Origin: an uncultured Gammaproteobacteria bacterium | Lineage (GTDB): Bacteria > Myxococcota_A > UBA796 > JAJRTE01 | Direction: 5' to 3' | Assembly: GCA_964418585.1 (NCBI GenBank) | Contig: CAYQMG010000089.1 | Span: 95,185 to 159,184, forward strand | Length of the DNA: 64,000 bases | Part shown: piece after piece, positions 10,684-43,526 of the stretch | Layout: each line of letters starts with the position of its first letter | Numbering within the stretch: position 1 is the stretch's first letter | Translations under genes and position numbers: made by a program | Notes under the pieces: model-generated | What the model saw: only the letters and a program-made list of their open reading frames with translations | What the model was told of the DNA's origin: nothing | The model's database searches: none

Positions 10684-10704
10684 CGGGCTCTCCCCTCTGT
10701 TCCG

Positions 10705-26246: not shown

Positions 26247-29200
26247 TCAGGAGAGGTCGATGTAGCAGTAGACGGGGAAGGGAGAGGCCGGGCGGATTCG
26301 CCAGGAGGTGGTGTGCAGCGTGTGCGCCTGGTTCACCGGGTGCTGATTGAAGTCGAAGCGAGGGTCGTGAACGGAGAAGAAGGCCACGCCCTGGTCCAGT
26401 CGGAGGGTGAGGCGTCGGTTCGGGTTGGACCACAGGATTTCGAGGGTGCGGTGGTGAGCGAGTTTTCGAGGGTGGTCTACCAGTTGGACCTGTGTCTTGG
26501 GGCGGAGGGTTGCGAGGAGGGAGGAGAGGACCTTTTCCTGGGTGGTTGGATTGGTCCAGTCATGGTGGATGAGTCTTGGGGAACGCCAGCCATCCTGCTG
26601 GACGGCGGTGGTGATGATTGAGAGGATGGTATCGGACGAGAGGGTGCCGAGTTTTTCGAGTCCCTGAAGGAGGAGGAACAGGCCGAGCGTGGAGAGTGGG
26701 CTTTTGACGTACCGGTCGGAGTAGGTGACCCGGCGTGCCGGGCCGGCCTGGAGTGCTCTGGCGGTACCGGGGTGAGTTTGTTGGACGAGTTTCCAGAAGT
26801 GGTGAGCGAACCGGGTACGGTTGTGGAACATGGGGTTGTCGTGGTTGATGACGAGTTCGTGCACGGTGCCCGGATCGGGGGGTTGGAGCTGGTCGGGGGA
26901 GAGTGGAGAGAGGTCGTCCGGGAGTGTCGGTGAGTTCAGGGTTGCGTGCACATTGGTGGCGTCCTGGCGTGTGTCGAGCCATGCGGGGCCTGGGAGGAGG
27001 GCGGCGTGGTCGTCGGTGGCGAAGGCGGTGACGGTGTCGTCGTGGTGGAGTTCTGCATAGGTTATTGTGGGGCTGTCGTTTTTCTGGTTGTGTTGGAGGA
27101 AGAGGTGCAACCTGGCGAATTCTGCGAGGTTGGCGAGTTGCCGACGGGTTTGCCAGTCGGCCTGGTCGAGGGCGGATGGGGGGAGGAGGAGGTCCACCTG
27201 GGTACCGGATTCGGCCATGTGGAGGAGGACGTGTCGTGCGTTCCAGGCGCCGAGGTCCCAATCGGCAGGGTTTCCCTGGAGTACGAACCGTGCTCGAGTC
27301 AAGGGGTGGCGCAGTACGACGCGCTGGATGGCCTGAATGGGGGATTGCCATTCCACGGTGGTGGCGTCTCCAAAGCACTTCAAGTCCTGAGGGAGTTCCA
27401 GCGCATGGAGCAACCGTTCGGAGAGGAATGTACGCGCTCGGTGCCGGTTGAGTTGTTTTCTTTCGTGCTGGGTATCGTGTCCGAGGAGGCAGGCGTGGCA
27501 GGCGGCGTCGCAGTGGTTGGGGCAGTCGAGGCGAGCGCGTGCGGCCTTGAGCAGGTGTGTGAGCATGGCCGGTGCCTCGGCGCAGAATCCGGCGCCGCCG
27601 TCGGCGGTGTCGTAGAGGATGACGGCCAGACAGGTGTGTGCTCCCTCGCGCCCGTGTGCCACGGTGCAGCCGATTTCCTCCTCCTCGACGCCCAGGGTTT
27701 CGGCGAGCGCGAGTTTCAGGGCCACGGCGATGGTGATGGCCTCCGATTCCTCCTGGAGCGGCATGCCGGTATGTGGGTTGAGGAAATGGAGTTCGAGCAC
27801 GTCGGTGATGGTGGTGGAGCCCAGGGCCAGGTGTCGCTTGATGGCGAACGGTTCCCCGTTGCCCTCGCAGAGGATTTCGGGGCCTTTTCTTCCGGACGAG
27901 TCGCGTCCTCCTCGCAGGCGTTTGTGCTGGCGCATGGCCTCGGGCAGTTCGGCCGAAGCCGGATTTTCAGGGTCCCAGGGCTCGGAGACGGTTCGACCGC
28001 ACCGGAGGCAGACGGCATAGCCGTGGCCGTGGGCACCGTGGCTGAGGTGGATGAGTTTGCCGTTGGGCGCGTGACGGAGGCGCACGACAGGGGGAGAACC
28101 GAACGGGACGAACGGGTTTTCTCCTGATGAGATCCAGGATTCCAGGGGGGGCATCCAGGGTTTGGCGCCCAGTTCCGTGCTTGCCTTGGAACGGATGTCG
28201 ACGGCAAAGCCGGAGGGGATGAGGAACTGGCGGTGGTGCAGGTTGGAGGAACCGCAGCAGGGGCAGGATTCCACCCAGGTGCGGCCAGCGGTGACCCATC
28301 CACACTGGAGGCAACGGGAACCCACCTGCAGGTCCTGGAGTTCGTTGATCAGATTCTCTGTGGCCTCTGGCGGGATGTGCCAGTTGAGGGTGACTCCCGC
28401 CGACCGATAGGCTCGACCGTCCAGCACCACTTCGAGCCCCGGTGCATATTCGTTCAAGGCCATTCGGAGTTCACGAGTGGGATAGCCGCGCAGGAGCGCC
28501 AGGTTGTCCTCTCGTTTTTCTGACGTTCGTTCCGGCCTGCTCGGGCGCCGACCTCTCTTCCTTCGCACCGCGAGTTCCTCGGCGGTGGTGGTGACGAAGG
28601 GGACCACGTTGGTGGGGAAACCATATCCAGGAAGGAACTGCCGTGTGGCAAGGTAGCCCAGGAGATACTCTTCCCGGTGGCGTTTCAATTGGCGCTGGAT
28701 GGCCAAGGCCACCGGTGAGCCATCCCGGTCTTCGGGTTCCAGCGCGTTCCATTCGGTTTGGAGCCCTTCCAGCGTGTTCAGGTATCCCCTTCGGGCCGCG
28801 TGCATGGATTCGGCCACGTCTTCCAGAAGGTCCTCGATGCGCGTTCTCTCCTTTATCGACCGCCTTCGCAGCACCTCGAGCCGGTATTGCAACTCGTCAC
28901 GAGCCGGTGCGGTTGCCTGGAGATACTCGAAAAACCGGTCGCATACGGAAGGGGCTTCTGAGTCGGCCTCGAAGAACCAGCCGCAATGAAGCTTTGGGAT
29001 GGCCTTGTCTCCGGCCGCCTGGTACTGAAGAAGGAAGTCGGTGAGACAGACCGCGTTCACGTGTCGCTGCACGATGGGTCCACTGTCCAGGCATACGTCG
29101 GTGACGTGGAGCGGCGTGGTGAAGGGCCACAGGGGATTGCGGAATACGGCCTGGTCGTGGGGAAGGTTGCGGCACACGGTCACGCTCACCGCTGTTCGTT

Positions 29201-32200
29201 CGCCTCGACGACCGGCCCGACCCACCCGTTGGAGGAAGTTGGCCGGGTTCGGGGGGGCGTTGTTCATCGACACCGCGGACAACCCACCGATGTCCACTCC
29301 GAGTTCCATGGTGGTGGAACAACTCAGCACATTGATGGAGCCGGCCTTGAACTCACGTTCGTAGCCCTGCAACGTCCCTGCAGGAAGCTGGGCAGAATGC
29401 TCGGCGACCCGAAAATAAAACCACCCCTCCACGATTCGGTCGGTAACCTCGTGCCACACACCGGCGCTCCGGAGTTGCCGCACCTGTTCGTCTTGGGCCA
29501 GCCATGCCCGGATTTGTTCGAGGCTCCAGGGCGTTCCGTCAAAAGCCCGTTTGAAGGCGAACGGGGGGCGGGGCATGGTGACCTTGACACACCGGGTGTC
29601 GTACGCCCAGGGGTCATTGGGTTGGAGCGGTGTGTGCCCTCGCAACGTCGTATCCAGGAGTTGGCCGGTCAGTGGGCAGATCCACGCCTCCTGGATCGGC
29701 TCGAGACATGCCTGTCGTTCCAGGTCGAGCTGGTATCCATCCTGGGTCTGGTGCAGGAGTCGGCGGATGGCTTGCCAGGCTTCGTGGAGAATCTCGTTCA
29801 CCTCCTCGCGGGTTTCCCTGTCGGAACCGAGACCGAAAGCCTGAACCAGGAGGGCGGCGAGGCGCGGTGGCCGGGCGGCCGTCATCCACTGGGGCCACGG
29901 TGTCCGGTGCCGCTCTCGTTTCTCGCCCTGGGGCAGGAGGTAGCTGGGACGGATCCGAGTCCCCATCCAGCGGAACAGCGCCGGTTCCATGGTGAGCGCG
30001 GTGTTGGCCCGAACGAAGAAGTCGAGACAGAGTTTCAGGAAATCCCGCCATGTCTGGAGTGTCTCGCCTCGAGCTTTCCAGGCAGCCGGAACACGGGTGA
30101 TCCGGGTGAGGCCGGGGTAGGTGAGTTTCACGAGTCCCAGGGTCTCCAGTGCGCGTCGGCGGGAAGGTCTCCGGGCGAACTCCCGCACGACCAGGCCTCG
30201 CGCCAGTGCTTGATGGTCCAGGTCGAAGGGATCGTAGGTGCTGCGCGCTGCGTGCATCCAGGAGATCTCCCGTGTTTTCGAAAGTTCCTGGATGGCGGTT
30301 CGGAAGCAGAGAGGTTCGGTCTGGGACAGGCTGTCAATCTCCTGGCGGAGTCGCTCGATGGTTTGGTCGAGCACCGTTCCACGGTCGCCCAGTTCTCGCT
30401 GGAGGGCGAGGAGGCGTCCGAGTTCCGCCTCTTTTTCCTCTCTTTTTTCCTGTTGGTCCGCCTGAGAGGTCCCAGACGTCGCAATGACCTGGGCGTAAAG
30501 AAAACTCCGAACGTAGTTGCGTTCCGAATCCCGCTGGGCCGCCGCTGCAAATCGGGCTGTGCCCTGGCGGCTGTCCGAGAACGTGATGAGTCGCCGACCG
30601 TCGGCGGGGCACCCGTTCCCGGTACGGTCGGCCGGGACCCATTCGAGCAGCCCAGGAAGGACCACGCTCTGGGTGAACTGGATGGCGTTTCGGAACGTTT
30701 TCCAGAAAGGGCGGAGGGACGGGCCCTTGTGGAGGCATCGCGGGCACTGAAGAGGTTCGGAGGCGGATTCCAAAGATTCGAGCACCAGGAAACGGGGGCC
30801 CGGGGTTCCCAGCTCCCCTGTTTTTGGATCGAGTGTTTCCAGGTCCGGAGAGGAGGGGTCTGGGGGCGGTGCGAGCAGGGCCGTGGCGTGGTGTTGGAGC
30901 GGAAAGTGCAATTCGGTACCCATTGGAGTGTCGGCAGGGTGTTCCGGTGCGGGGGACTCGTCGTCTTCTGGAGCGAACGGATCTTCCTCGTCGTCGGTGG
31001 CCGTGTCGCCCCGGTCCGGTGGGGGGCTGTTTGGAGGAAGGAAGCGGTCGGTGGCGTCCTGCTGCACCACGGTTCCTGCCAGGAAGATCTGGCTGCAGGT
31101 GTTGCACAGGACCAGTTCATACACGAGCGAGCCACAGGCCTTGCAGGTGTGGCGTTCGTTGAAGTAGACCGTTCCAAAAGGCCATTCCGAGGACTGGAGC
31201 GGGCGGTGCGTTTTCCCCGGGCACGCCGGGTTGATACAGGCCCAGAGCCCGGGCTGGGTCCGGGCAAACAGGTGCAAGCGTAGAGGCAGGAACGGGGTGC
31301 CATCCGGGCCTGTCGCGCTGCTCAACAGGTCCAGGAACCGGACGGTCTGCTTTCGGGCCTCGGTTTGCTGTCGTGCCGAAGGGCCGAACAGGGTCTGCGT
31401 CAGGTCCGAGAGGCGGGCGGGTCCTCGGGAGACGAAAGCGCTTCGAACCGTCCGTGCTGGGAGGGAGGAACAGAGTTTCTCGTAGCGTTCGTCCTGGGTA
31501 AGCGCGGAGAGGGCGTCCAGGTCCGGGAACGTGGTCTCGAGCGGGTCTTTGTCGGGTAGCCTCGGAATGTCGTGCCGACCCAGCACCACGTGGACCTGAT
31601 GATCCGGTTGGCCCGATACCGAAGCCAGGAAGCGCCGCAGCGCCTCTTCCGGGGTTCTCCCGTGGCGATCCTTGCCCTGGGACGCGATGGTGGCCGAGGT
31701 GGCGATGAACCGGACGTTCTCGGCCCGGACTTCGAAGGCGGTGAGCACACGACGAAGCAGGAGCGCCAGTTCCGCGGCCTGTGACCCCAGGTAGGTGTGC
31801 GCCTCGTCGATGACCACGTATTTGAGTCGGCCCCGGGAAAGCTCGAGGATCGGATGGTCGGCTGGACGAACCAGCATGTATTCGAGCATGGTCGCATTGG
31901 TGAGGAGGATGGGAGGAGGCGCTTTTCTGAGCGACTTGCGGTCCAGCACCTCCTCGGGCCGGTGGCGCTTCTCCGATTCCGGCAAATGGTCCGGGGTGTT
32001 GCCGTTGTAAAGGCAGAACCGAACCGTGCCGTCGAAGCCTCGAGTCCAGGCTGCCAGCCTGTCCTGCTGGCTGTTGATGAGCGCGTTGAGTGGGTAGAGA
32101 AACAGAGCCTGGACTCCGACCAGCGGCCGTCGCCGGTGCCTCGCCTGGAGGGCGAGATCGTTGAGAATCGGGATGAGGAAGCACTCGGTCTTCCCGCTAC

Positions 32201-32621
32201 CCGTGCCTGCACTCACGACCACTGACCGGGGCGGGTCACTCATCAGGTGTCGCCAGGCCTCCCGTTGGTGCAGGTAGGGGTGGATCGATCGCGCCAGTCG
32301 CTGCTCCCGCAGCGTTTCCGGCGGGCTGTCCAGGTAGGAGACCAGGGTGGCATCGAGTTCTCCCGTGTCGGCGAGGTCCTGGAGTGTTTCCGGGCCGGTC
32401 CGGTGGCCGAACTTGGCCTCGAACACCGGGTCGGAGAAGAGCGCGTTCTCGGTCCCGGGCGCGTGTTCGTAGGTGTCGGCGAGGAACTCCCTTAGGGGGC
32501 GGTTTCTGGGCGATAGATAGCTCAGCAAGGCCCGTCCGTACCGAGTGGTCAGGTTGTCCAGCAGGATGTTGAACTCGTTGGAACGCGATCGTTCGGAAGA
32601 AGGGAGATCTGGATTCGTCAT
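26247..32621 (-). CDS. Giant DExH-box SF2 helicase with Zn-ribbon insertions and DUF1998-like (MrfA-type Zn-binding) module; DruE-like
   Basis: Track ORF 26247..32666 (TTG) trimmed to ATG 32621 (MTNPDLPSS) preceded by AAGGAGAG. Motifs: Walker A SAGTGSGKTE, Ia YPLNALINSQ, II VVIDEAHTY, III ATSAT, VI QRVGRAGRRGE about 850 aa downstream; Cys clusters CINPACPGK...HTCKACG...CNTCSQ, CLQCGW...CPCCG, CLRCG, CPNHCDAACHAC; LPGYGFP and ILYDTADGGAGF as recalled for DUF1998. Confidence 0.85.
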   Translation of the reverse strand: MTNPDLPSSERSRSNEFNILLDNLTTRYGRALLSYLSPRNRPLREFLADTYEHAPGTENALFSDPVFEAKFGHRTGPETLQDLADTGELDATLVSYLDSPPETLREQRLARSIHPYLHQREAWRHLMSDPPRSVVVSAGTGSGKTECFLIPILNDLALQARHRRRPLVGVQALFLYPLNALINSQQDRLAAWTRGFDGTVRFCLYNGNTPDHLPESEKRHRPEEVLDRKSLRKAPPPILLTNATMLEYMLVRPADHPILELSRGRLKYVVIDEAHTYLGSQAAELALLLRRVLTAFEVRAENVRFIATSATIASQGKDRHGRTPEEALRRFLASVSGQPDHQVHVVLGRHDIPRLPDKDPLETTFPDLDALSALTQDERYEKLCSSLPARTVRSAFVSRGPARLSDLTQTLFGPSARQQTEARKQTVRFLDLLSSATGPDGTPFLPLRLHLFARTQPGLWACINPACPGKTHRPLQSSEWPFGTVYFNERHTCKACGSLVYELVLCNTCSQIFLAGTVVQQDATDRFLPPNSPPPDRGDTATDDEEDPFAPEDDESPAPEHPADTPMGTELHFPLQHHATALLAPPPDPSSPDLETLDPKTGELGTPGPRFLVLESLESASEPLQCPRCLHKGPSLRPFWKTFRNAIQFTQSVVLPGLLEWVPADRTGNGCPADGRRLITFSDSRQGTARFAAAAQRDSERNYVRSFLYAQVIATSGTSQADQQEKREEKEAELGRLLALQRELGDRGTVLDQTIERLRQEIDSLSQTEPLCFRTAIQELSKTREISWMHAARSTYDPFDLDHQALARGLVVREFARRPSRRRALETLGLVKLTYPGLTRITRVPAAWKARGETLQTWRDFLKLCLDFFVRANTALTMEPALFRWMGTRIRPSYLLPQGEKRERHRTPWPQWMTAARPPRLAALLVQAFGLGSDRETREEVNEILHEAWQAIRRLLHQTQDGYQLDLERQACLEPIQEAWICPLTGQLLDTTLRGHTPLQPNDPWAYDTRCVKVTMPRPPFAFKRAFDGTPWSLEQIRAWLAQDEQVRQLRSAGVWHEVTDRIVEGWFYFRVAEHSAQLPAGTLQGYEREFKAGSINVLSCSTTMELGVDIGGLSAVSMNNAPPNPANFLQRVGRAGRRGERTAVSVTVCRNLPHDQAVFRNPLWPFTTPLHVTDVCLDSGPIVQRHVNAVCLTDFLLQYQAAGDKAIPKLHCGWFFEADSEAPSVCDRFFEYLQATAPARDELQYRLEVLRRRSIKERTRIEDLLEDVAESMHAARRGYLNTLEGLQTEWNALEPEDRDGSPVALAIQRQLKRHREEYLLGYLATRQFLPGYGFPTNVVPFVTTTAEELAVRRKRGRRPSRPERTSEKREDNLALLRGYPTRELRMALNEYAPGLEVVLDGRAYRSAGVTLNWHIPPEATENLINELQDLQVGSRCLQCGWVTAGRTWVESCPCCGSSNLHHRQFLIPSGFAVDIRSKASTELGAKPWMPPLESWISSGENPFVPFGSPPVVRLRHAPNGKLIHLSHGAHGHGYAVCLRCGRTVSEPWDPENPASAELPEAMRQHKRLRGGRDSSGRKGPEILCEGNGEPFAIKRHLALGSTTITDVLELHFLNPHTGMPLQEESEAITIAVALKLALAETLGVEEEEIGCTVAHGREGAHTCLAVILYDTADGGAGFCAEAPAMLTHLLKAARARLDCPNHCDAACHACLLGHDTQHERKQLNRHRARTFLSERLLHALELPQDLKCFGDATTVEWQSPIQAIQRVVLRHPLTRARFVLQGNPADWDLGAWNARHVLLHMAESGTQVDLLLPPSALDQADWQTRRQLANLAEFARLHLFLQHNQKNDSPTITYAELHHDDTVTAFATDDHAALLPGPAWLDTRQDATNVHATLNSPTLPDDLSPLSPDQLQPPDPGTVHELVINHDNPMFHNRTRFAHHFWKLVQQTHPGTARALQAGPARRVTYSDRYVKSPLSTLGLFLLLQGLEKLGTLSSDTILSIITTAVQQDGWRSPRLIHHDWTNPTTQEKVLSSLLATLRPKTQVQLVDHPRKLAHHRTLEILWSNPNRRLTLRLDQGVAFFSVHDPRFDFNQHPVNQAHTLHTTSWRIRPASPFPVYCYIDLS

Positions 32622-32669
32622 CGTTCTCTCCTTTTCTGCGAGGAGACGGCCGGGTGAAAGGCGCAAGGG

Positions 32670-35600
32670 TCAGTCCGCCGCTGAACCGGAAGGGTAAGAT
32701 TTCTTTCGGCGCGTTCGTTTGTGCACCGCCACCGGACCCGCCCCAGCGCGTGCAGCGCTTGCTGGTTTGAAAGGACTCGGCTCGTTTTCCCACGGGGTTT
32801 CGGAGGGGAACGGAGGCAATTTCTCCTGGAACGCGGGCCATGGGCTTTTCCACCGTTCCCTGGCCAGCAGGATCAAGGCGAGTTGATATGCGGTTTCGAA
32901 GTATTCCGGATCGAATTCCTTGAACTCGCGGAGAAAGAAGATGACCCGGCGCTCGAGCCGTGTTCCGGAGACGGCCGCGGAGGCTGCCGCGGCCGGAGCG
33001 AAGACCACGGGCCTGGTGTAGCCGGGGACCAGATTCTTGTCGGTGAAGGGGGACAAGGGACTTTTCCCCAGCGGACCGTGTATGGCCTCTGTTTTCAGCG
33101 TGGTGAAAACCGGGCCGGCCGGGCAGCAGGGCCACTGGTCGGAAGCGTGGCGTTCGCGGAGTTCACGGACGGTATCCCGCAGCGAATCGTAGATGGGTTC
33201 CACCGGTCCGACACCACGGGCCGACAACACCTCGTTTTTCCGGCAGGGTGAATGCTGGATTCCCTCCTGTTCCGCCCACCTGCAGAATGGGATGGTCACC
33301 GTGGGAAGGAGGTTCTCCACCCGCTTGACGCCGTGGGTCAGGGTGCGCTCCACCAGGGTGGCCATCCCCGCGTCCCGGGCGTGCATGGCGGGTAGACAGG
33401 ATCGGTGGTATTGCTCGAAAGCGTTCTCCCAGGCGCCCAGGGGGACGAGTTCCCACATGAACGGGAAGCGCTCGAACAGGTCCCAGATGGCCTCGAAGTC
33501 AGGTTCGTGCATGGATCGAACCGCGGCCATGGCCACCACGTCGGGCATGTAGCTCATGCAGCGCAACACGTCGAACGTGGCGGGTGGGATGTCGGCGGCC
33601 ACCTCGAGGAACCCTGTGACGACGCGCCAGTCCTCGTCTCTCGGGTTGGCTGCCAGGGACCGGAGGGCCAGGGCGATGTGGTCCCAACGGGTTCTGGCAG
33701 GGTGTTGCTCCATGGCCGCAACCAAGGCACTGTCGACCCGGTCCAGGGTCTGTGAGACCCGGCCTGGAGGTTCGTCGACCGTCCAGGCGAGGGTGCGGCC
33801 TCGGTGCCACGCGCCATCTCGAGCCGTGATCAGCCAGGTGCCGGGTTCTCGTGATTCCGGTGCGAATCGCCAACGCGGTGTTCCGGCAGCGTCGTGTCCG
33901 ATGAATGGGAGCGTTTCCGTCTTGCTCACATTTTTCAGTGGTCGTGCCTCCACGGTCACCTCGTCGAGCGGTTGCCCGGTTGCGCCTGTCAGCACCACCT
34001 CCCCGCGGCTCGTGTCTCGTTGAAGGACCCAGTCGTATCGCCGGACCCGGATGCTGGTTCCTTGACCTGGCGTGCTGCCAACCTCGAACACCTGGAGGCG
34101 CACATCGGTGTCGTAGGTATCGCTCATTGCAAGCAGTCGCTCCACTGCCGGGAGCACGTGCCGGAGGGGGAGTTCGTGGAATCCCTCTCGGACTCGAGGC
34201 ACCGGTTGGGTGGTTTCCAGCCTGGTGCTGAGATCGGAACTGGACGCGGACAGGTAGTACCGTCCTGTGGTCGAGGGGGTGATGATTCGGAGGCGATGGC
34301 GTCCCAGTCTGGAGATGTGGATGGGGTGATCATGAGGGAGGGGGTCCGACTTTGCCGATTCGAACGAAGCCCGCTCCACAGGCCAGGGCAGACAAAGGTC
34401 GACCTCGGTCCCGAAATCGAGGCGCAGGTGAAGGTGCGGAAGGTGGGGTGCGACACAGGGCACGTGGACGGTGTGGCCCTCGTTGGTACGGGAGATGTAC
34501 ACGCCCTCGGCCGCGCGAACCAGGCCGACCCTTCGGAGAAAGCGGCTGGAGAGTGTGATTGCGCCGTCCCTCTCCCGGTCACCCACGGTCATGGTCCACC
34601 TGAAATCGGGAGGAAGAACGGTCAACCTATTCTCCCACGCCACCTCCTCCCTCTCTCCGTAGAGACGAAACCGGAGCGTCCCGAACAGGGTTTCGTCCCA
34701 CGGGCGCCAGGATCCATCGGGGTGCCGGACCCGGATCCTCTGGGTGTTCACCGGCGCACGTCGGGCCGAACTCAGGGTTCGATACAGGTCGGGCAGCCCC
34801 AACCAGAGAGTGCTTGAGGTGTCCGGAAGGTCGAGTCGCGCCCCGGAGAAGCTGTACTCCCCTTCTTCGGCTTCGGCCGCAGTGCGAACCCTCACCTGGT
34901 CTCCATTCCGGTGAAAGGTCACGTCCCCCTGGACACGGTAAGCCGTCCTGTCCAGGGGGGCGCCCATGAAGGATGCACCGACCCCCTGGTACGTCTTCGG
35001 AGACCAGTCTGCGCCGGCCAGCACCAGGACCTCCTCCGAGCGCACCTTGCAACTCCCCGTGGCAAGAAGCTCCCACGCTCCCGGTGCTTGCGTATCCTGG
35101 CGGAAGGTCCAGGGAAGGTCAGGGAGTGCCGAGGCCCCCTCGAGCCCGGCGACCTTGGCCAGCACCTCGCTGCCACTGGAAATCTCGAGCAGAATCTCGC
35201 CTGTTTCCTCGAGAACCAGCCCACGTGCTCCGGTGGTGGTCAAGATCCAGTAGGGATTGCCCTGCTCGTGTCGACGGAGGAGCCGGCCGTATGCAGCGAC
35301 CTCGGAGTGTTCTGGAGAGTACATACGGAGTCCCAGGCGTCGCGAGCCAGGGTCCAGCTTTGTGCCGAGAAAGGACTCGAGCACGGCCGGCTCGATGCGT
35401 CGCGCGGCCGACAGGCGTCGTTCGAGGTGCCACTTACCGTTGCGCTCCACCAACCAGGTCGCCATGCGAATCCGGTCCTTCGCCCCGCGCGCCACGTCGC
35501 TCGCCGTGGATACGAGGCCGCGCAGAAACGCCAGGGCCGTGTCGTTTTCGAGCAGAATGGGCATGGTGTCCCGCCAGGCGGGATCATGGAGGTCCAACCA

Positions 35601-36242
35601 GGCGACCGGGTCCTGCTTGTCGTCCAGGGGGTAACGGGAGCGGAGGGACCAGACCTGGGCTACCAGGTCAGCCGCCAGCGCCTCGGTCTCCTCGCTTCGA
35701 AGGGATACCGGCAGCAGGTGCGCGCGGTCCGCCGCCACCTGGAACAGCTCCTCAGACGATTCGGTCCCGCCGTATCCGTACACGCGGAAATCTTCCATGA
35801 TCGCGCGGAAGTAGGCGTGTAGCTTCGACCCCTCCTGTTGGAGCAGCTTCAGGGGCATGCCGCCCTCGCATGCGATGGTCACCAGGTAGAGTTGCCTTCC
35901 GTTTCGGGACAGGACAGGCCTGTCCCACCGTTCGAGCCCGGTCCGGATCACGGCAACCAGTGTGCTCCAGTTCCATTGCTCCTTGCCAATGCTGCATTTG
36001 AGTCCATCCCAGGACCATGCACCGTGCTCATGACGTCGTCGCCACCACTCGGCACCCGCGAGACAGATCATGGCCGCCTCGTCAGGTGAGATCCGGGTGG
36101 AGGGCAGGGAAGACAGCCGCGCACGCAGTCCGGCCAGGATGGCGTGCCATTCTTCCCGGGTACACCGGTAGGCATAAAGCGGACGCCCGTCCGGTTCGGG
36201 TGGTCTGTCCACGTGTCGCTCCAGAAACTCTCTCAGCTTCAT
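32670..36242 (-). CDS. Giant (~1190 aa) protein of unknown function, operon partner upstream of the helicase; DruH-like by position and size
   Basis: Track ORF 32670..37925 trimmed: its upstream 560 codons are antisense to the aldehyde dehydrogenase gene. ATG 36242 (MKLREFLERH) preceded by AAGGAGGGAG; alternative ATG 36374 (MQVLSAG) also has GAGGAG. No recognisable catalytic motifs. 48-bp gap to helicase start. Confidence 0.65.
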   Translation of the reverse strand: MKLREFLERHVDRPPEPDGRPLYAYRCTREEWHAILAGLRARLSSLPSTRISPDEAAMICLAGAEWWRRRHEHGAWSWDGLKCSIGKEQWNWSTLVAVIRTGLERWDRPVLSRNGRQLYLVTIACEGGMPLKLLQQEGSKLHAYFRAIMEDFRVYGYGGTESSEELFQVAADRAHLLPVSLRSEETEALAADLVAQVWSLRSRYPLDDKQDPVAWLDLHDPAWRDTMPILLENDTALAFLRGLVSTASDVARGAKDRIRMATWLVERNGKWHLERRLSAARRIEPAVLESFLGTKLDPGSRRLGLRMYSPEHSEVAAYGRLLRRHEQGNPYWILTTTGARGLVLEETGEILLEISSGSEVLAKVAGLEGASALPDLPWTFRQDTQAPGAWELLATGSCKVRSEEVLVLAGADWSPKTYQGVGASFMGAPLDRTAYRVQGDVTFHRNGDQVRVRTAAEAEEGEYSFSGARLDLPDTSSTLWLGLPDLYRTLSSARRAPVNTQRIRVRHPDGSWRPWDETLFGTLRFRLYGEREEVAWENRLTVLPPDFRWTMTVGDRERDGAITLSSRFLRRVGLVRAAEGVYISRTNEGHTVHVPCVAPHLPHLHLRLDFGTEVDLCLPWPVERASFESAKSDPLPHDHPIHISRLGRHRLRIITPSTTGRYYLSASSSDLSTRLETTQPVPRVREGFHELPLRHVLPAVERLLAMSDTYDTDVRLQVFEVGSTPGQGTSIRVRRYDWVLQRDTSRGEVVLTGATGQPLDEVTVEARPLKNVSKTETLPFIGHDAAGTPRWRFAPESREPGTWLITARDGAWHRGRTLAWTVDEPPGRVSQTLDRVDSALVAAMEQHPARTRWDHIALALRSLAANPRDEDWRVVTGFLEVAADIPPATFDVLRCMSYMPDVVAMAAVRSMHEPDFEAIWDLFERFPFMWELVPLGAWENAFEQYHRSCLPAMHARDAGMATLVERTLTHGVKRVENLLPTVTIPFCRWAEQEGIQHSPCRKNEVLSARGVGPVEPIYDSLRDTVRELRERHASDQWPCCPAGPVFTTLKTEAIHGPLGKSPLSPFTDKNLVPGYTRPVVFAPAAAASAAVSGTRLERRVIFFLREFKEFDPEYFETAYQLALILLARERWKSPWPAFQEKLPPFPSETPWENEPSPFKPASAARAGAGPVAVHKRTRRKKSYPSGSAAD

Positions 36243-36506
36243 CCCACTCCCTCCTTGGACGGCACGCGCCTCGACCACCCCGGGACCGGTCCGGGCCGGG
36301 GGGGCTGAAGGCGGGAAAGCGTGGTATTCCCCACCACCTTGCGCCCTGACCGGTCCCGCGGACAAGACCTGCATGGTCTCCTCTTTCAGGTATTGGCGAT
36401 CAGCAACGAGGAACTGACATCGACCGGCGCACCAACTCGAGTTTGACATCCCGGAGCAGGCTGACGAGAATAGCGAAGCGTGCTCGTGTGAAAGGAGGCC
36501 TCCGTC

Positions 36507-37946
36507 ATGTTGAAGGAATCGTATCCGTGCTACGTGGCCAACCAGCCGGTGACTCCGAACCAGGACCTCGAGGTACGAGACAAGTACTCCGGCCAGACCG
36601 TGACTCGGGTCCCCCTGGCCGGACCGGATCTCATCGAAACCGCCATCGGGAAGGCAGCAGCAGCCGTCCCGGCGATGCGGGAACTGCCTGCCTATCGTCG
36701 GGCCAGTGTCCTGAACCACTGTCTCCAGAGGTTCGAGGAGCGCTTCGACGAACTCGCCATCGCACTCTGTGTGGAAGCCGGAAAGCCCATCCGGGACGCC
36801 CGCGGTGAAGTGACACGGCTCATCGACACCTTCCGGATTGCGGCCGAGGAAGCTGTGCGGCTCAACGCTGATTTCCTCCCTCTGGACATCTCGCCTCGAG
36901 CCGATGGCTACGAGGGCATCACCCGCCGTGTGCCGGTCGGGGCCTGCGCGTTCATCAGCCCATTCAACTTCCCTCTCAACCTCGTCGCCCACAAGGTCGC
37001 TCCCGCAATCGCCGTGGGATGCCCGTTCGTGCTCAAGCCCGCCTCGTTCACCCCGGTCGGGGCCTTGATCATCGGCGAAATCCTCGCAGAGACCGACCTC
37101 CCTGAAGGCGCATTCAGCATCCTCCCCGCGCGGCGACAGGACGCATGGCCGCTGGTCACCGACGACCGGTTGAAACTCCTCTCCTTCACCGGATCCCCGG
37201 AGGTCGGCTGGTCCCTCAAGGCCCAGGCGGGCAAGAAAAGAGTCGTCCTCGAACTCGGGGGGAACGCCGGGTGTATCGTTGACGAGGGCGCAGACCTGGA
37301 ACGGGTCGCGGATCGGATTACCTTCGGCGCTTTCTACCAGTCCGGACAGTCTTGCATCAGTGTCCAGCGCATCCTGATCCACGATTCCCTCTACGATGAC
37401 CTCGTCCCCATGCTCGTGGAACGGGCACGCGCATTGAAACCTGGAAACCCTCAGCACGAATCGGTCTCCCTCGGCCCCATCATCAGCGAGGCGGACGCAA
37501 TCCGTATCGCAACCTGGATCGACGAGGCTGTACAACACGGGGCACGGATCCTCTGTGGCGGTCACCGAAACGGCTCGTTCGTCGAGGCCACGCTCCTCGA
37601 AAACGTCGACCCCAAGGACAAGGTGAGCTGCGCCGAGGTCTTCGGTCCCGTCGCCACAGTCCAGCGGTTCTCCAACTTCCAACAGGCCGTCCAGATCGTC
37701 AATGACAGCAGGTACGGACTCCAGGCCGGCGTCTTCACTCGAGACCTGAACCGGGCCTTCTACGCATGGAACCATCTCGAGGTCGGAGGCGTCGTCATCA
37801 ACGACATCCCGTCCATGCGCGTGGACAGCATGCCTTACGGCGGCGTCAAGGACAGCGGGCTGGGCCGGGAAGGGGTCCCCTACGCCATGGAGCACATGAC
37901 CGAGACCCGCCTGATGGTGCTCCATCGAGCGGGCCGACTGTCGTAA
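36507..37946 (+). CDS. NAD(P)-dependent aldehyde dehydrogenase family protein
   Basis: 479 aa; AAGGAGG RBS; ALDH signatures (FTGSPEVG, ELGGNAG, catalytic Cys in QSGQSCISVQR). Confidence 0.9.
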   Translation: MLKESYPCYVANQPVTPNQDLEVRDKYSGQTVTRVPLAGPDLIETAIGKAAAAVPAMRELPAYRRASVLNHCLQRFEERFDELAIALCVEAGKPIRDARGEVTRLIDTFRIAAEEAVRLNADFLPLDISPRADGYEGITRRVPVGACAFISPFNFPLNLVAHKVAPAIAVGCPFVLKPASFTPVGALIIGEILAETDLPEGAFSILPARRQDAWPLVTDDRLKLLSFTGSPEVGWSLKAQAGKKRVVLELGGNAGCIVDEGADLERVADRITFGAFYQSGQSCISVQRILIHDSLYDDLVPMLVERARALKPGNPQHESVSLGPIISEADAIRIATWIDEAVQHGARILCGGHRNGSFVEATLLENVDPKDKVSCAEVFGPVATVQRFSNFQQAVQIVNDSRYGLQAGVFTRDLNRAFYAWNHLEVGGVVINDIPSMRVDSMPYGGVKDSGLGREGVPYAMEHMTETRLMVLHRAGRLS

Positions 37947-41437: not shown

Positions 41438-43501
41438 ATGCGAGCGCACGTCCGACAACGTGGCTACGCCGCCCTTGCCTTGCTTCTGTCTGCATGTGTT
41501 CTGGACCCCGTCCCCCTGTTCGACCAGGACCGGGACGGCCTGCCCCTTGCCGAGGATTGCGACGATCAAGACCCGACCGTGGGCACCCGGTACCTGGACC
41601 AGGACGGTGACGGCCACGGCGACCAGAACGCCCGTCTCGAGTGCTCTCCTTCCTCGAGCGCCCTGGTGGCGGACGACTGCAACGACCAGGATCCGGCTGT
41701 GTACCCGGCTGCCGAGGAGGTGTGCAACGGTGTGGACGACGATTGTGACGGGCTCGTGGACGAGTCTCTGACGTTCGAGACCCTGTACCTGGACGAGGAC
41801 GGCGATGGGCACGGCGATCCGGAAACCGGCATCGAGACCTGTGGCGCTGTCGGTGATCGGGTCGAGGATGGAACCGACTGCGACGACGGTGATCCACTGG
41901 TGTACCCCGGTGCCGAGGAGGTGTGCAACGGAGTGGACGATGACTGTGACGGCAGGACCGACGAGGGCGTGATCGAGACCTACTATCCGGACGCGGACGG
42001 AGACGGATACGGGAAGGAAGGCGGGAGGCCCGTTCCGGCCTGTGCGCCGCCCGCAGGCCATGTCCAGGACGCCAGCGACTGCGACGATGCGTCGCCCACC
42101 ACCTATCCTGGGGCGGAGGAAGTGTGCAACGGTGTGGACGACGACTGCGACGGGGTGGTGGACGAGGAAGGAACCAGCGTTTACTACCAGGACCTCGATG
42201 GGGACGGTTATGGCGATCCCAACGTTTCAGTAGCCGCCTGTGACACTCCGTCTGGGTTCGTCTCCGACGCAAGCGATTGTGACGACACCCGGGCACTGGC
42301 ATATCCCGGCGCCAGCGAGACCTGCAACGATGCCGACGACGACTGCGACGGGTACGAGGATGAAGATGTGGCCATCGTGGCGGTTTCCGGGGGTATTTTC
42401 CACACGCTGGCGCTCTGCTCCGACGGAACCGTGTGGGCCTGGGGCAACAACGACCAGGGTCAGCTTGGGGACGGGACCCGGGAGGACCGTTCCTGGCCGG
42501 GTCGGGTGGAAGGATTGGACCACGTGGTGGCTGTAGCCGCGGGGGGGTACCATTCCCTGGCCTTGCGGCGAACCGATCAGGGGGAGACGTCGGTTTGGGC
42601 CTGGGGAAGCAACGATCACGGACAGATCGGGGAGGGGTGGGGTGAAGCAGCCGCCTATCCCGTCGAGTTGGAAGGTCTGGACGGCGTGGAAGCGGTGGCT
42701 GCCGGCGATGGATTCAGTCTGGTCTTGCGTACTCGAGCAGCCGGTGGCGCAGGTGAGGTTTGGGGTTGGGGGCGGAACGACCGCGGTCAACTCGGGGATG
42801 GAACCGGGCGGGATCAGGCTGCCCCGGTGCTGGTGGAGGGGCTTGTCGGCGTCGCCCGTATCCGTGCTGGGTCGGTTCACGTGCTGGCGCTCACCGGGCC
42901 GGACTCGGCTTTGCCGGGCCGAGTTTGGGCCTGGGGAGGGAACGATCACGGGCAAGTGGGCGATGGCACGGCCGAGGACCGGTGGCAGCCCGTCCAGGTT
43001 TCCGGTCCGGAGGGGGTGCTGTCGCTTGCCGCCGGGGGAGAACACAGTCTGGCCGTTGCGGGCGGGGAGGGGGATGGCGGCGTGTTGTGGGCCTGGGGGG
43101 ACAACACCTACGGTCAGCTCGGCGATGGGACCACGGTGGCGCGTCTCCGGCCGGCCCGGGTGGAAGGCGTCTCGCCTTTCCTGTTCGTCGCAGCAGGCTA
43201 CCACCATTCGCTCGGAATCGTTCTGGACGATACCGGGGCGACATCCCTCCTGGCCTGGGGGGGCAATAGCGAGGGACAGCTCGGCACCGGGACCACTTCG
43301 AGCAGTGACGTGCCCGTCCCGGTGCTTCTCGATGCGGGCGTGACGGTGCTGGCTGTCGGAGCGGCCCACAGCCTGGCGGTGGCTGACCCTGATGGGGGTG
43401 GGGCCGGGGGTCTGTGGAGTTGGGGAAGCAACGGTTACGGGCAACTGGGAGACGGCACCCGGGAGAACCGGCTCGAGCCGGTGGTCGTTGCTGGAATCTA
43501 G
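41438..43501 (+). CDS. Lipoprotein with tandem Cys-rich putative metal-binding repeats followed by RCC1-like repeats
   Basis: 687 aa; lipobox LLLSAC; about six repeats of CxDxDPxVYPGAEEVCNGVDDDCDG; then repeated WAWGxNxxGQLGDGT units typical of RCC1 beta-propeller blades. Confidence 0.8.
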   Translation: MRAHVRQRGYAALALLLSACVLDPVPLFDQDRDGLPLAEDCDDQDPTVGTRYLDQDGDGHGDQNARLECSPSSSALVADDCNDQDPAVYPAAEEVCNGVDDDCDGLVDESLTFETLYLDEDGDGHGDPETGIETCGAVGDRVEDGTDCDDGDPLVYPGAEEVCNGVDDDCDGRTDEGVIETYYPDADGDGYGKEGGRPVPACAPPAGHVQDASDCDDASPTTYPGAEEVCNGVDDDCDGVVDEEGTSVYYQDLDGDGYGDPNVSVAACDTPSGFVSDASDCDDTRALAYPGASETCNDADDDCDGYEDEDVAIVAVSGGIFHTLALCSDGTVWAWGNNDQGQLGDGTREDRSWPGRVEGLDHVVAVAAGGYHSLALRRTDQGETSVWAWGSNDHGQIGEGWGEAAAYPVELEGLDGVEAVAAGDGFSLVLRTRAAGGAGEVWGWGRNDRGQLGDGTGRDQAAPVLVEGLVGVARIRAGSVHVLALTGPDSALPGRVWAWGGNDHGQVGDGTAEDRWQPVQVSGPEGVLSLAAGGEHSLAVAGGEGDGGVLWAWGDNTYGQLGDGTTVARLRPARVEGVSPFLFVAAGYHHSLGIVLDDTGATSLLAWGGNSEGQLGTGTTSSSDVPVPVLLDAGVTVLAVGAAHSLAVADPDGGGAGGLWSWGSNGYGQLGDGTRENRLEPVVVAGI
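41549..42368 (+). repeat. Tandem coding repeats (Cys-rich CNGxDDDCDG units) within the lipoprotein gene
   Basis: Repeated ...gaggaggtgtgcaacgg(t/a)gtggacga(c/t)ga(c/t)tg(c/t)gacgg... segments; coordinates approximate. Confidence 0.6.
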
Positions 43502-43526
43502 GCTGTCCGTGGGAGGGCTCGCCAGC

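What the first reader, a model, noticed from the sequence alone, without database searches (positions are those of the whole stretch)
26247..32621. Helicase has split RecA lobes separated by about 850 residues of insertions, plus about 400 C-terminal residues of unknown function
Motifs I-III lie at residues ~155-325 but motif VI (QRVGRAGRRGE) is at ~1150. The intervening region has Zn-ribbon-like Cys clusters, a Pro/Asp/Glu-rich acidic linker and a probable coiled-coil (EKREEKEAELGRLLALQRELGDRG). After the DUF1998-like Cys cluster (~1720) a further ~400 aa lack any motif I recognise and may be an effector or sensor domain.
Basis: partly seen in the sequence, partly recalled or inferred. Interest (0 to 1): 0.6.

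Follow-up and report, generated by a model that had tools for sequence, protein, structure and literature searches.

The report
Ordinary type III-A Druantia DruE helicase
This 2,124-residue protein is a typical DruE helicase of a two-gene DruH–DruE (type III-A Druantia) anti-phage system, and its "insertions" and "unknown" C-terminus are standard, already solved and named domains of that family.

Summary
ORF 26247..32621 (-) encodes a 2,124-aa SF2 helicase. Motifs I-III lie at residues 139-311 and motifs V-VI at 1104-1141. In between are Cys clusters, an acidic Pro-rich loop and long helices. About 410 residues follow the MZB/DUF1998 zinc cluster.

None of this is unusual for the family:
- A PADLOC DruE3 profile matches end to end (2054 bits).
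- The E. coli DruE cryo-EM structure 9TU7 aligns over residues 19-2111 (E=0).
- Over 5,600 homologues exist, and nearly all of the best 120 share the ~2,100-aa architecture.
- The upstream gene is DruH (YjiT family).

Every flagged feature maps to a published domain:
- The Cys clusters are the double zinc-binding domain.
- The acidic linker is its "lock" loop.
- The coiled-coil is the dimerisation/stalk domain.
- The C-terminal ~400 aa are two PLD-like domains. Sequence homology shows this, and an AF2 model (pLDDT 90) hits PLD-superfamily structures.

A motif IV-like block (GRRLITFSDSRQGTARF, 675-691) shows that RecA2 is interrupted by insertions, rather than the two lobes simply being far apart.

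One open point remains: preprints disagree on whether the PLD pocket is a required nuclease. In this protein its invariant residues are intact (D1969-R-Y, H2056-x-R, D2076).

Verdict: already known, low interest.

The parts
26247..32621 (-). druE coding sequence (2,124 aa plus stop), type III-A Druantia helicase
   Evidence: PADLOC DruE3 PDLC00037 matches 14-2113 to profile 3-2043/2055 at 2054 bits. PDB 9TU7 (E. coli DruE) gives E=0. The identical protein is in public collections at 2,124 aa.
32670..36245 (-). druH coding sequence (1,191 aa), the partner gene; its stop lies 48 nt upstream of the druE ATG
   Evidence: NCBIfam NF038336 YjiT_fam scores 544 bits against a cutoff of 150, end to end. 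PADLOC DruH3 gives 3.7e-92. PDB 9TUD 'DruH' gives 2.6e-34. The same adjacency is seen in L001 and L004-L006.
31632..32291 (-). RecA1 lobe (residues ~111-330): Walker A 139-146, DEAH 272-275, SAT 309-311
   Evidence: Pfam DEAD at 118-314, 82 bits. Motif positions. The window keeps 92% of family-conserved columns here.
31302..31619 (-). helical (winged-helix-like) domain, residues ~335-440
   Evidence: AF2 model helices at 368-435. Assigned to the WH domain of E. coli DruE by homology. Boundaries are approximate.
30702..31283 (-). double zinc-binding domain (dZBD / ZBM_L), residues ~447-640; Zn ligands C462/C467/C493/C496 and C506/C509/C626/C629
   Evidence: All eight Cys are invariant, or invariant in all but one, across 121 sequences. 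The AF2 model is beta-rich at 447-614. Published as dZBD or ZBM_L.
30747..31094 (-). acidic Pro-rich loop (residues 510-625) inside the dZBD; its first part (~532-552) aligns with the E. coli 'lock' loop
   Evidence: pLDDT is below 50 at 532-579. The loop is acidic across the family (24% D/E, median length 101 aa); the window's loop is the longest (116 aa) and has 18% Pro. Alignment to 9TU7 index 509-527. Lock function described. The residue mapping is approximate because this region is poorly conserved.
30522..30701 (-). first part of RecA2 (residues ~641-700), including the motif IV-like block GRRLITFSDSRQGTARF at 675-691
   Evidence: AF2 model helices at 685-717, 720-744 and 749-765. The position corresponds to E. 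coli PD/DD residues 678-759. The segment is 57 aa against a family median of 51.
29472..30311 (-). duplex-binding / Cap / INS domain inserted in RecA2 (residues ~771-1050)
   Evidence: Aligns to 9TU7 index 767-1050. Occupancy in 120 homologues is at least 0.92. Named DBD, Cap or INS.
29112..29471 (-). second part of RecA2 (residues ~1051-1170): motif V at 1104-1112, motif VI at 1131-1141
   Evidence: Pfam Helicase_C at 1069-1140 matches profile positions 39-110 only. This is the most conserved stretch of the protein, mean top-residue frequency 0.88.
27402..29111 (-). MrfA-like module (residues ~1171-1740): extended WH/connector, OB-fold with Zn sites (C1437/1440/1453/1456; C1538/1541/1585), and the MZB domain (C1700/1704/1708/1711)
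   Evidence: Pfam MZB at 1632-1712, 42.5 bits against a cutoff of 24.2. All listed Cys are invariant in 121 sequences. Aligns to 9TU7 index 1287-1718.
26877..27401 (-). PLD-like domain 1 (residues ~1741-1915), lacking a His motif
   Evidence: Homologous to 9TU7 index 1682-2097, E=3.7e-29. AF2 model has pLDDT 90. Foldseek hits are PLD-superfamily structures. The boundary with PLD2 is approximate.
26250..26876 (-). PLD-like domain 2 (residues ~1916-2124) with the family-invariant residues D1969-R1970-Y1971, H2056-x-R2058 and D2076-x-G2078
   Evidence: Invariant or nearly invariant in 116-117 full-length homologues. The DRY and HxR motifs match the pocket residues mutated in P. aeruginosa DruE: D1917/R1918/Y1919, H1999 and R2001.

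Best explanation
This is DruE, the large YprA/MrfA-like SF2 helicase of a two-gene type III-A Druantia anti-phage system. Its partner druH lies immediately upstream on the same strand.

Shown here by sequence and structure comparison:
- An intact helicase core with motifs I, II, III, IV-like, V and VI.
- Five invariant zinc sites.
- A helical stalk.
- An MrfA-like OB/MZB module.
- Two C-terminal PLD-like domains whose invariant pocket residues are intact.

Inferred from studies of E. coli and P. aeruginosa homologues:
- DruE loads on exposed single-stranded DNA at tails or forks of phage replication or recombination intermediates and unwinds 3'->5' using ATP.
- The double zinc domain and the inserted duplex-binding domain cradle the duplex.
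- The acidic loop acts as a DNA-competitive 'lock'.
- The helical stalk mediates DruE dimerisation and/or docking of DruH.
- DruH binds or trims DNA ends and licenses DruE.

My preferred reading of the last step is that the PLD-like pocket (DRY / HxR / DxG) degrades the unwound strand. This step is contested in the literature.
For: Identity:
- PADLOC DruE3 matches end to end at 2054 bits, and DruH3 gives 3.7e-92.
- NCBIfam YjiT_fam scores 544 bits against a cutoff of 150.
- PDB 9TU7 (E. coli DruE) gives E=0 over residues 19-2111.
- PDB 9TUD (DruH) gives 2.6e-34.
- More than 5,600 homologues exist. Of the best 120, 116 are 2,025-2,126 aa long, mostly with 97-100% query coverage.
- druH lies directly upstream in three other lineages.

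Intactness:
- All motifs and zinc ligands are present.
- The window keeps 80-92% of family-conserved columns in every domain.

C-terminus:
- The AF2 model has pLDDT 90, and Foldseek returns PLD-superfamily proteins: PssA, MITD1, SauUSI, PLD, Tdp1, F13 and PLD3.
- D1969, H2056 and R2058 are invariant, and R1970, Y1971 and D2076 nearly so, in 116-117 homologues of ~40% identity.

Mechanism, from the literature:
- 3'-tail or fork loading and unwinding.
- Lock loop, DD and PD domains.
- Stalk-DruH contact, and loss of defence and of nuclease activity with D1740A, D1917A and R1918A.
Against: - Two E. coli studies found the PLD domains dispensable for defence. One found no nuclease activity and notes that the canonical HxK(x)4D motif is absent.
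- The studies also disagree on whether the dimer is the active or the autoinhibited form, on which overhang polarity is preferred, and on what DruH does.
- Nothing about this particular protein has been tested experimentally.
- It comes from a metagenome-assembled contig.
- It sits among housekeeping genes rather than in a defence island.
- The mapping of P. aeruginosa pocket residues other than DRY and HxR is tentative, because I could not obtain that sequence.
Confidence: 0.9

Rival explanations
1. It is the same DruE helicase, but the PLD-like domains are non-catalytic. They would be structural or regulatory, or serve only in cross-talk with other systems. Defence would then rest on unwinding and on displacing or recruiting other factors.
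For: [quoted passage not shown] DruE 1-1723 restored protection and no reproducible nuclease activity was seen. About 3% of the closest homologues (4 of 120) lack the PLD region yet are still paired with DruH. The window has HxR rather than HxK.
Against: DRY, HxR and DxG are invariant or nearly so across 116-117 homologues at ~40% identity. That is hard to explain for a dispensable appendage. In P. aeruginosa DruE, point mutations in the same pocket abolish defence and ssDNA degradation. Another E. coli study reports DNA nicking and cleavage by DruE. This locus has no Zorya or ARMADA partner that the PLD domains could serve.
Confidence: 0.35
2. It is a housekeeping DNA-repair helicase of the MrfA/YprA type, not a defence protein.
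Against: The MrfA match covers only the core. The end-to-end matches are to DruE3 profiles and to the DruE structure. The obligatory partner DruH is adjacent. No MrfB-like exonuclease is present. NCBIfam repair-helicase models score far below their cutoffs.
Confidence: 0.03
3. It is a decaying remnant, like the yjiT/yjiV pseudogenes of E. coli K-12, and no longer functional.
For: It is an isolated two-gene locus outside any defence island. Several family-conserved arginines in the PLD region are substituted: positions 1801, 1866, 1913, 1941, 1956, 1979 and 2028.
Against: Both ORFs are uninterrupted and full length. All helicase motifs, zinc ligands and PLD-pocket invariants are kept. Conservation is within the family range in every domain. 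The comparison with K-12 yjiT/yjiV rests on my own knowledge and was not tested here.
Confidence: 0.03

Closest known systems
E. coli DruE, type III-A Druantia (PDB 9TU7-9TUC; Wahl, Taylor and Nobrega/Patel lab preprints, May 2026)
   Same: The length is nearly the same (2,108 vs 2,124 aa). The domain order is the same: NTR, RecA1, WH, double Zn domain with lock loop, RecA2 carrying an inserted dimerisation domain and duplex-binding/Cap domain, eWH, OB-Zn, MZB, PLD1, PLD2. The alignment covers residues 19-2111. The five zinc sites and all helicase motifs are shared. DruH is upstream.
   Different: The stalk segment is ~57 aa here against ~86 aa in the E. coli protein. The lock loop is longer and Pro-rich. 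The E. coli interface residue H1023 aligns with Phe here. The E. coli locus sits with Zorya II and ARMADA II, whereas this one stands alone.
P. aeruginosa DruE-DruH (Loeff, Chanez and Jinek preprint, 10.64898/2026.05.13.724313)
   Same: INS and Stalk domains are embedded in RecA2. There are two MITD1-like PLD domains. The pocket residues DRY and HxR are both present here, at 1969-1971 and 2056-2058.
   Different: I could not obtain the P. aeruginosa sequence. Only DRY and HxR are mapped with confidence; D1740 is tentatively equated with D1789. The position aligned with the E. coli Ser after DxG is Ala here. The spacing from DRY to HxR is 87 residues here against 82.
MrfA/YprA (PDB 6ZNP/6ZNS), DNA-repair helicase of B. 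subtilis
   Different: MrfA is ~750 aa. It lacks the double Zn domain, stalk, Cap/DBD and PLD domains, which make up about 60% of DruE. It works with the MrfB exonuclease, not with DruH.
Canonical HKD phospholipase D-superfamily nucleases (Nuc, BfiI, the SauUSI nuclease domain)
   Same: The two tandem domains adopt a PLD-like fold (Foldseek E from 3e-7 to 1e-3). A His-containing motif lies at the start of a beta-strand in domain 2.
   Different: The motif is H-x-R, followed ~18 residues later by D-x-G, rather than HxK(x)4D(x)6GSxN. Domain 1 has no conserved His. Whether the domains are catalytic is disputed.

Membership tests
DruE of type III Druantia | Full-length similarity to DruE type III profiles or structures, not just to the helicase core | tested here: met
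   PADLOC PDLC00037 matches 14-2113 to 3-2043/2055 at 2054 bits. PDB 9TU7 gives E=0 over residues 19-713 and 771-2111.
DruE of type III Druantia | SF2 helicase core with Walker A, DEAH, and motifs III, V and VI | tested here: met
   GTGSGKT at 139, DEAH at 272, SAT at 309, TMELGVDIG at 1104, QRVGRAGRRGE at 1131. Pfam DEAD scores 82 bits and Helicase_C 44 bits, both above cutoff.
DruE of type III Druantia | MZB (DUF1998) zinc-binding domain C-terminal to the helicase | tested here: met
   Pfam PF09369 at 1632-1712 scores 42.5 bits against a cutoff of 24.2. C1700/1704/1708/1711 are invariant.
DruE of type III Druantia | druH (YjiT family) encoded next to druE in the same orientation, with no other Druantia genes (druA-D, druM/F/G) | tested here: met
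   ORF 32670..36245 (-) matches NF038336 at 544 bits against a cutoff of 150, DruH3 and 9TUD. The flanking genes are a MarR-like regulator with an efflux operon on one side and an aldehyde dehydrogenase on the other.
Subtype III-A (as opposed to III-B) | Two C-terminal PLD-like domains after the MZB domain | tested here: met
   Homology to 9TU7 index 1682-2097, E=3.7e-29. The AF2 model has pLDDT 90 and its top Foldseek hits are PLD-superfamily structures. Homologues of ~1,690 aa end before this region.
DruE of type III Druantia | Helical dimerisation/stalk domain inserted in the RecA2-associated region | tested here: inconclusive
   Predicted helices at 685-717, 720-744 and 749-765 sit at the expected position. 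However, this segment did not align with E. coli residues 680-765 at sequence level and is ~29 aa shorter. Oligomeric state cannot be tested here.
DruE of type III Druantia | Confers phage defence together with DruH; ATP-dependent 3'->5' DNA unwinding | not testable with these tools
   Known only for E. coli, P. aeruginosa and M. smegmatis homologues.
Canonical HKD PLD nuclease | HxK(x)4D(x)6G(S/G)xN catalytic motif, one per domain | tested here: not met
   The only invariant His motif is H2056-H-R2058, followed by D2076-Q-G2078. No HxK is present, and domain 1 has no conserved His.
Canonical HKD PLD nuclease | PLD-superfamily fold | tested here: met
   Foldseek hits include PssA 8yr5 (3e-7), MITD1 4a5z (2e-5), SauUSI 7clg, PLD 7e0m and Tdp1 6n0d.
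YprA/MrfA-like helicase family | RecA1-RecA2 core plus an OB-connector-MZB array | tested here: met

The most novel reading that the evidence does not exclude
The non-canonical PLD pocket (DRY / HxR / DxG, without HxK) could be a genuinely catalytic, helicase-fed nuclease site of a new PLD subtype. It is invariant across more than 100 diverse DruE proteins and is intact here. Its reported dispensability in E. coli would then reflect redundancy with co-resident Zorya II and ARMADA II. On that reading, a stand-alone locus such as this one, which has no partner systems, would depend on the pocket absolutely. This would be a refinement within a known system, not a new system.
Probability: 0.4. Interest if true: 0.3.

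Novelty: already known. Interest (0 to 1): 0.1.

Why it matters
The main value is as a correct annotation. The window carries a complete, apparently functional type III-A Druantia system (druH-druE) in a Myxococcota-like metagenomic genome. It stands alone among housekeeping genes.

One point of wider relevance is modest. Current preprints disagree on whether the C-terminal PLD-like domains are a required nuclease. The near-invariance of DRY / HxR / DxG across 116-117 homologues, including this stand-alone system, argues that the pocket is under strong selection. A partner-free locus like this one would be a clean test case.

Tried and rejected
- I looked for the E. coli DruE sequence by blastn against E. 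coli genomes and fetched locus L003. It is a second druHE variant, yjiT plus a 2,114-aa helicase next to mcrBC/hsd. Its numbering does not match the papers: Walker A is at 127 and DRY at 1954. I therefore dropped it for residue mapping and used phmmer alignments to PDB 9TU7 instead. The 9TU7 sequence index equals the papers' numbering plus 4.
- The listing of cluster members gave no names or accessions for the protein or its closest relative. The organism is inferred only from context: many Ser/Thr kinases, FGE-sulfatase and RCC1/MopE proteins, and nearest named homologues from Myxococcota.
- I could not obtain the P. aeruginosa DruE sequence. Pocket residues H1830, R1951 and S2022 are therefore not mapped.
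- I tested whether this protein is an outlier in any domain, for example through a drifting PLD region. It is not: 80-92% of conserved columns are kept in every domain, and it ranks 10th to 27th from the bottom of 117.
- I checked whether the locus lies in a defence island with Zorya or ARMADA. It does not. Neighbours are DnaE, an RND efflux operon, an aldehyde dehydrogenase, ClpB, a sigma factor and Mur-ligase/AccD-type genes. The PADLOC PD-T4-6 hits are generic kinase-domain matches.
- No tRNA genes were found, and promoter and terminator scans gave nothing above chance around the locus.

Full report
**1. The observation**

The ORF on the minus strand spans 26247..32666 at its maximum. The likely start is the ATG at 32621, which is preceded by AAAAGGAGAG. 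This gives 2,124 residues. Public gene calls for the identical protein, found on metagenomic contigs of up to 167 kb, give the same length. Third-position GC is 0.76, as in the neighbouring genes.

Numbered from the ATG, the features are as follows:
- Walker A (GTGSGKT) at 139-145, DEAH at 272-275 and SAT at 309-311.
- Motif V (TMELGVDIG) at 1104-1112 and motif VI (QRVGRAGRRGE) at 1131-1141.
- The quoted helical sequence at 725-748.
- A stretch of 47-57% Pro/Asp/Glu at 521-580.
- CxxC pairs at 493, 506, 626, 1437, 1453, 1538 and 1708.

Otherwise the description is accurate.

Pfam finds DEAD at 118-314, only profile positions 39-110 of Helicase_C at 1069-1140, and MZB (formerly DUF1998) at 1632-1712. 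My Pfam copy finds nothing after that.

**2. What it is**

- A PADLOC DruE type III profile matches residues 14-2113 to profile positions 3-2043 of 2055, at 2054 bits.
- The upstream ORF's real start is at 36245, giving 1,191 aa. It matches DruH type III profiles, the NCBIfam YjiT family end to end at 544 bits against a cutoff of 150, and the solved DruH structure 9TUD.
- The PDB holds a 2,108-residue E. coli DruE (9TU7-9TUC). It aligns to residues 19-713 and 771-2111 with E=0. The C-terminal 415 residues alone give E=3.7e-29.
- The protein database search found more than 5,600 relatives. Of the best 120, 116 are 2,025-2,126 aa long, mostly with 97-100% coverage. The other four are ~1,690 aa.
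- In a MAFFT alignment of these 120, every 50-residue block of the 'insertion' and of the C-terminus has occupancy of at least 0.82, except the acidic loop at 0.66.
- Newer Pfam releases already contain families named YjiV_N (in DruE) and YjiT_N and YjiT_2nd (in DruH).
- In three other lineages druH sits directly upstream of druE with a 4-nt overlap: Pseudenhygromyxa, a contig whose protein a source names Thioalkalivibrio sp. HK1, and a TARA marine contig carrying a short form.

This is therefore a type III-A Druantia system.

**3. Mapping the flagged features to published domains**

Four independent preprints from May 2026 describe DruE structures, and the 2025 YprA-family survey also covers the family. 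Residue mapping used the phmmer alignments to 9TU7. The 9TU7 sequence index equals the papers' numbering plus 4.

- **Zn-ribbon-like Cys clusters.** These are the double zinc-binding domain (dZBD, also called ZBM_L). C462/467/493/496 and C506/509/626/629 are invariant in 121 sequences, apart from one substitution at C626. Three further sites are also invariant: C1437/1440/1453/1456, C1538/1541/1585 and C1700/1704/1708/1711. This matches the five zinc motifs reported for E. coli DruE.
- **Acidic linker.** It lies between the two halves of the second zinc site. It is predicted to be disordered at 532-579. It is acidic across the family (24% D/E, median length 101 aa). The window's loop is the longest at 116 aa and unusually Pro-rich at 18% against 7%. 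Its first part aligns approximately with the E. coli 'lock' loop. That loop adopts a DNA-competitive conformation and is required for defence.
- **Coiled-coil.** It falls in a run of long predicted helices at 685-717, 720-744 and 749-765. This is the position of the dimerisation domain, variously called PD, DD or Stalk. Its deletion abolishes dimerisation and defence in E. coli. It contacts DruH in the P. aeruginosa complex.

**4. The C-terminal ~400 residues**

An AlphaFold2 model of residues 1725-2124, built on 23 sequences, has mean pLDDT 90. Its top Foldseek hits in the PDB are PLD-superfamily proteins: phosphatidylserine synthase, MITD1, the SauUSI nuclease domain, bacterial PLDs, Tdp1, vaccinia F13 and PLD3. 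E-values run from 3e-7 to 1e-3.

The region is therefore two tandem PLD-like domains, as published. There is no canonical HxK(x)4D motif.

Among 116-117 full-length homologues of ~40% identity, D1969, P1975, H2056, R2058 and W1793 are invariant, and R1970, Y1971, D2076 and G2078 nearly so (at least 95%). Position 1789 is D or E in 107 of 117. DRY and HxR correspond to the P. aeruginosa pocket residues D1917/R1918/Y1919 and H1999/R2001. Alanine substitutions of D1740, D1917 and R1918 abolish defence, and D1740A also abolishes ssDNA degradation. All of these residues are intact in the window protein.

**5. How it most likely works**

*Shown here:* identity, domain composition, and intactness of all motifs, zinc ligands and pocket residues. 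Conservation is within the family range in every domain, at 80-92% of conserved columns.

*Inferred from homologues:*
- DruE loads on exposed ssDNA at tails or forks and unwinds 3'->5'.
- The dZBD and the inserted domain hold the duplex.
- The lock loop competes with the tracking strand.
- The stalk mediates dimerisation and/or DruH docking.
- DruH binds or trims DNA ends.

*Contested:* whether the PLD pocket degrades DNA.
- Two E. coli studies found the PLD domains dispensable, and one of them saw no nuclease activity.
- The P. aeruginosa study and another E. coli study report nuclease activity, and pocket mutants lose defence.

The near-invariance of the pocket across the family favours a selected function. 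I put the nuclease reading at about 0.5-0.6 and the non-catalytic reading at about 0.35.

**6. Context**

The locus is not in a defence island.
- Downstream of druE lie a MarR-like regulator and an RND efflux operon (OEP, AcrB), then DnaE.
- Upstream, and divergently transcribed, is an aldehyde dehydrogenase.
- Further out are ClpB, a sigma-70 factor, AccD-like, Mur-ligase-like and LD-carboxypeptidase genes.
- Ser/Thr kinases fused to FGE-sulfatase domains, RCC1/MopE repeat proteins and the nearest named homologues point to Myxococcota.
- No Zorya or ARMADA genes, tRNAs or obvious mobile-element signs were found.

**7. Verdict**

Novelty: already known. Interest: low, about 0.1. The only residual interest is that this partner-free system, with an intact invariant PLD pocket, would be a clean test of the disputed nuclease role.

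Most of the mechanistic literature cited consists of preprints that are not yet peer-reviewed.

Noticed in passing
window 36246-37925 (-) versus 36507-37946 (+): The 1,751-codon ORF 32670..37925 (-) is about 560 codons too long. Its upstream part lies antisense to a well-supported aldehyde dehydrogenase gene (Pfam Aldedh 1e-142). druH really starts at 36245 (MKLREFLERH...), where the YjiT_fam profile begins.
   Followed up: yes
L003 (E. coli FDAARGOS_497, NZ_CP033850.1 2261441-2271088): E. coli carries a second druH-druE variant, yjiT plus a 2,114-aa helicase, in the immigration-control region next to mcrBC, symE and hsd. It differs in numbering from the solved 9TU7 protein and is only ~31% identical to the window protein. 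blastn with a 453-nt RecA2 probe found it in 285 of 5,426 complete genomes.
   Followed up: partly
window 30747-31094 (-), residues 510-625: The acidic 'lock' loop is the longest of 121 aligned DruE proteins (116 aa against a median of 101). It is also unusually Pro-rich (18% against 7%) and very poor in Lys/Arg (3%).
   Followed up: partly
window 26250-27401 (-), residues 1741-2124: The invariant PLD-pocket residues are kept. However, seven positions that are Arg in 60-85% of homologues are substituted here: H1801, A1866, Q1913, H1941, A1956, L1979 and Q2028. This may mean a less basic PLD surface. I did not check whether the closest relative (56% identity) shares these substitutions.
   Followed up: partly
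window 12986-15820 (-), 43392-45665 (+), 41438-43501 (+): Two Ser/Thr protein kinases are present, one fused to PEGA and FGE-sulfatase domains. There is also an RCC1-repeat protein with MopE metal-binding motifs, which is typical of Myxococcota. Their strong PADLOC 'PD-T4-6' and 'mad6' hits cover only the generic kinase domain and should not be read as defence systems.
   Followed up: partly
window 8599-10704 (-): The stop-to-stop translation combines a beta-lactamase-fold domain (residues 19-370) with an AccD-type zinc ribbon and carboxyl-transferase domain (446-659). This is either a fusion protein or two adjacent genes in the same frame. I did not resolve which.
   Followed up: no
L006 (TARA contig, 21.1 kb): A short (1,699-aa) DruE lacking the PLD domains is still paired with DruH. 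It sits in a dense defence island with an Eco57I-like enzyme, two SNF2 helicases, an HNH protein, an RNase III-like protein and a ZorA-like gene. This contrasts with the isolated locus in the window.
   Followed up: no
PDB 9WAE (1,970-aa 'Helicase'): A second large solved helicase matches the window protein only weakly (E=2.6e-29, best over motifs V-VI). It is probably another Druantia type or a related YprA-family defence helicase. I did not identify it.
   Followed up: no
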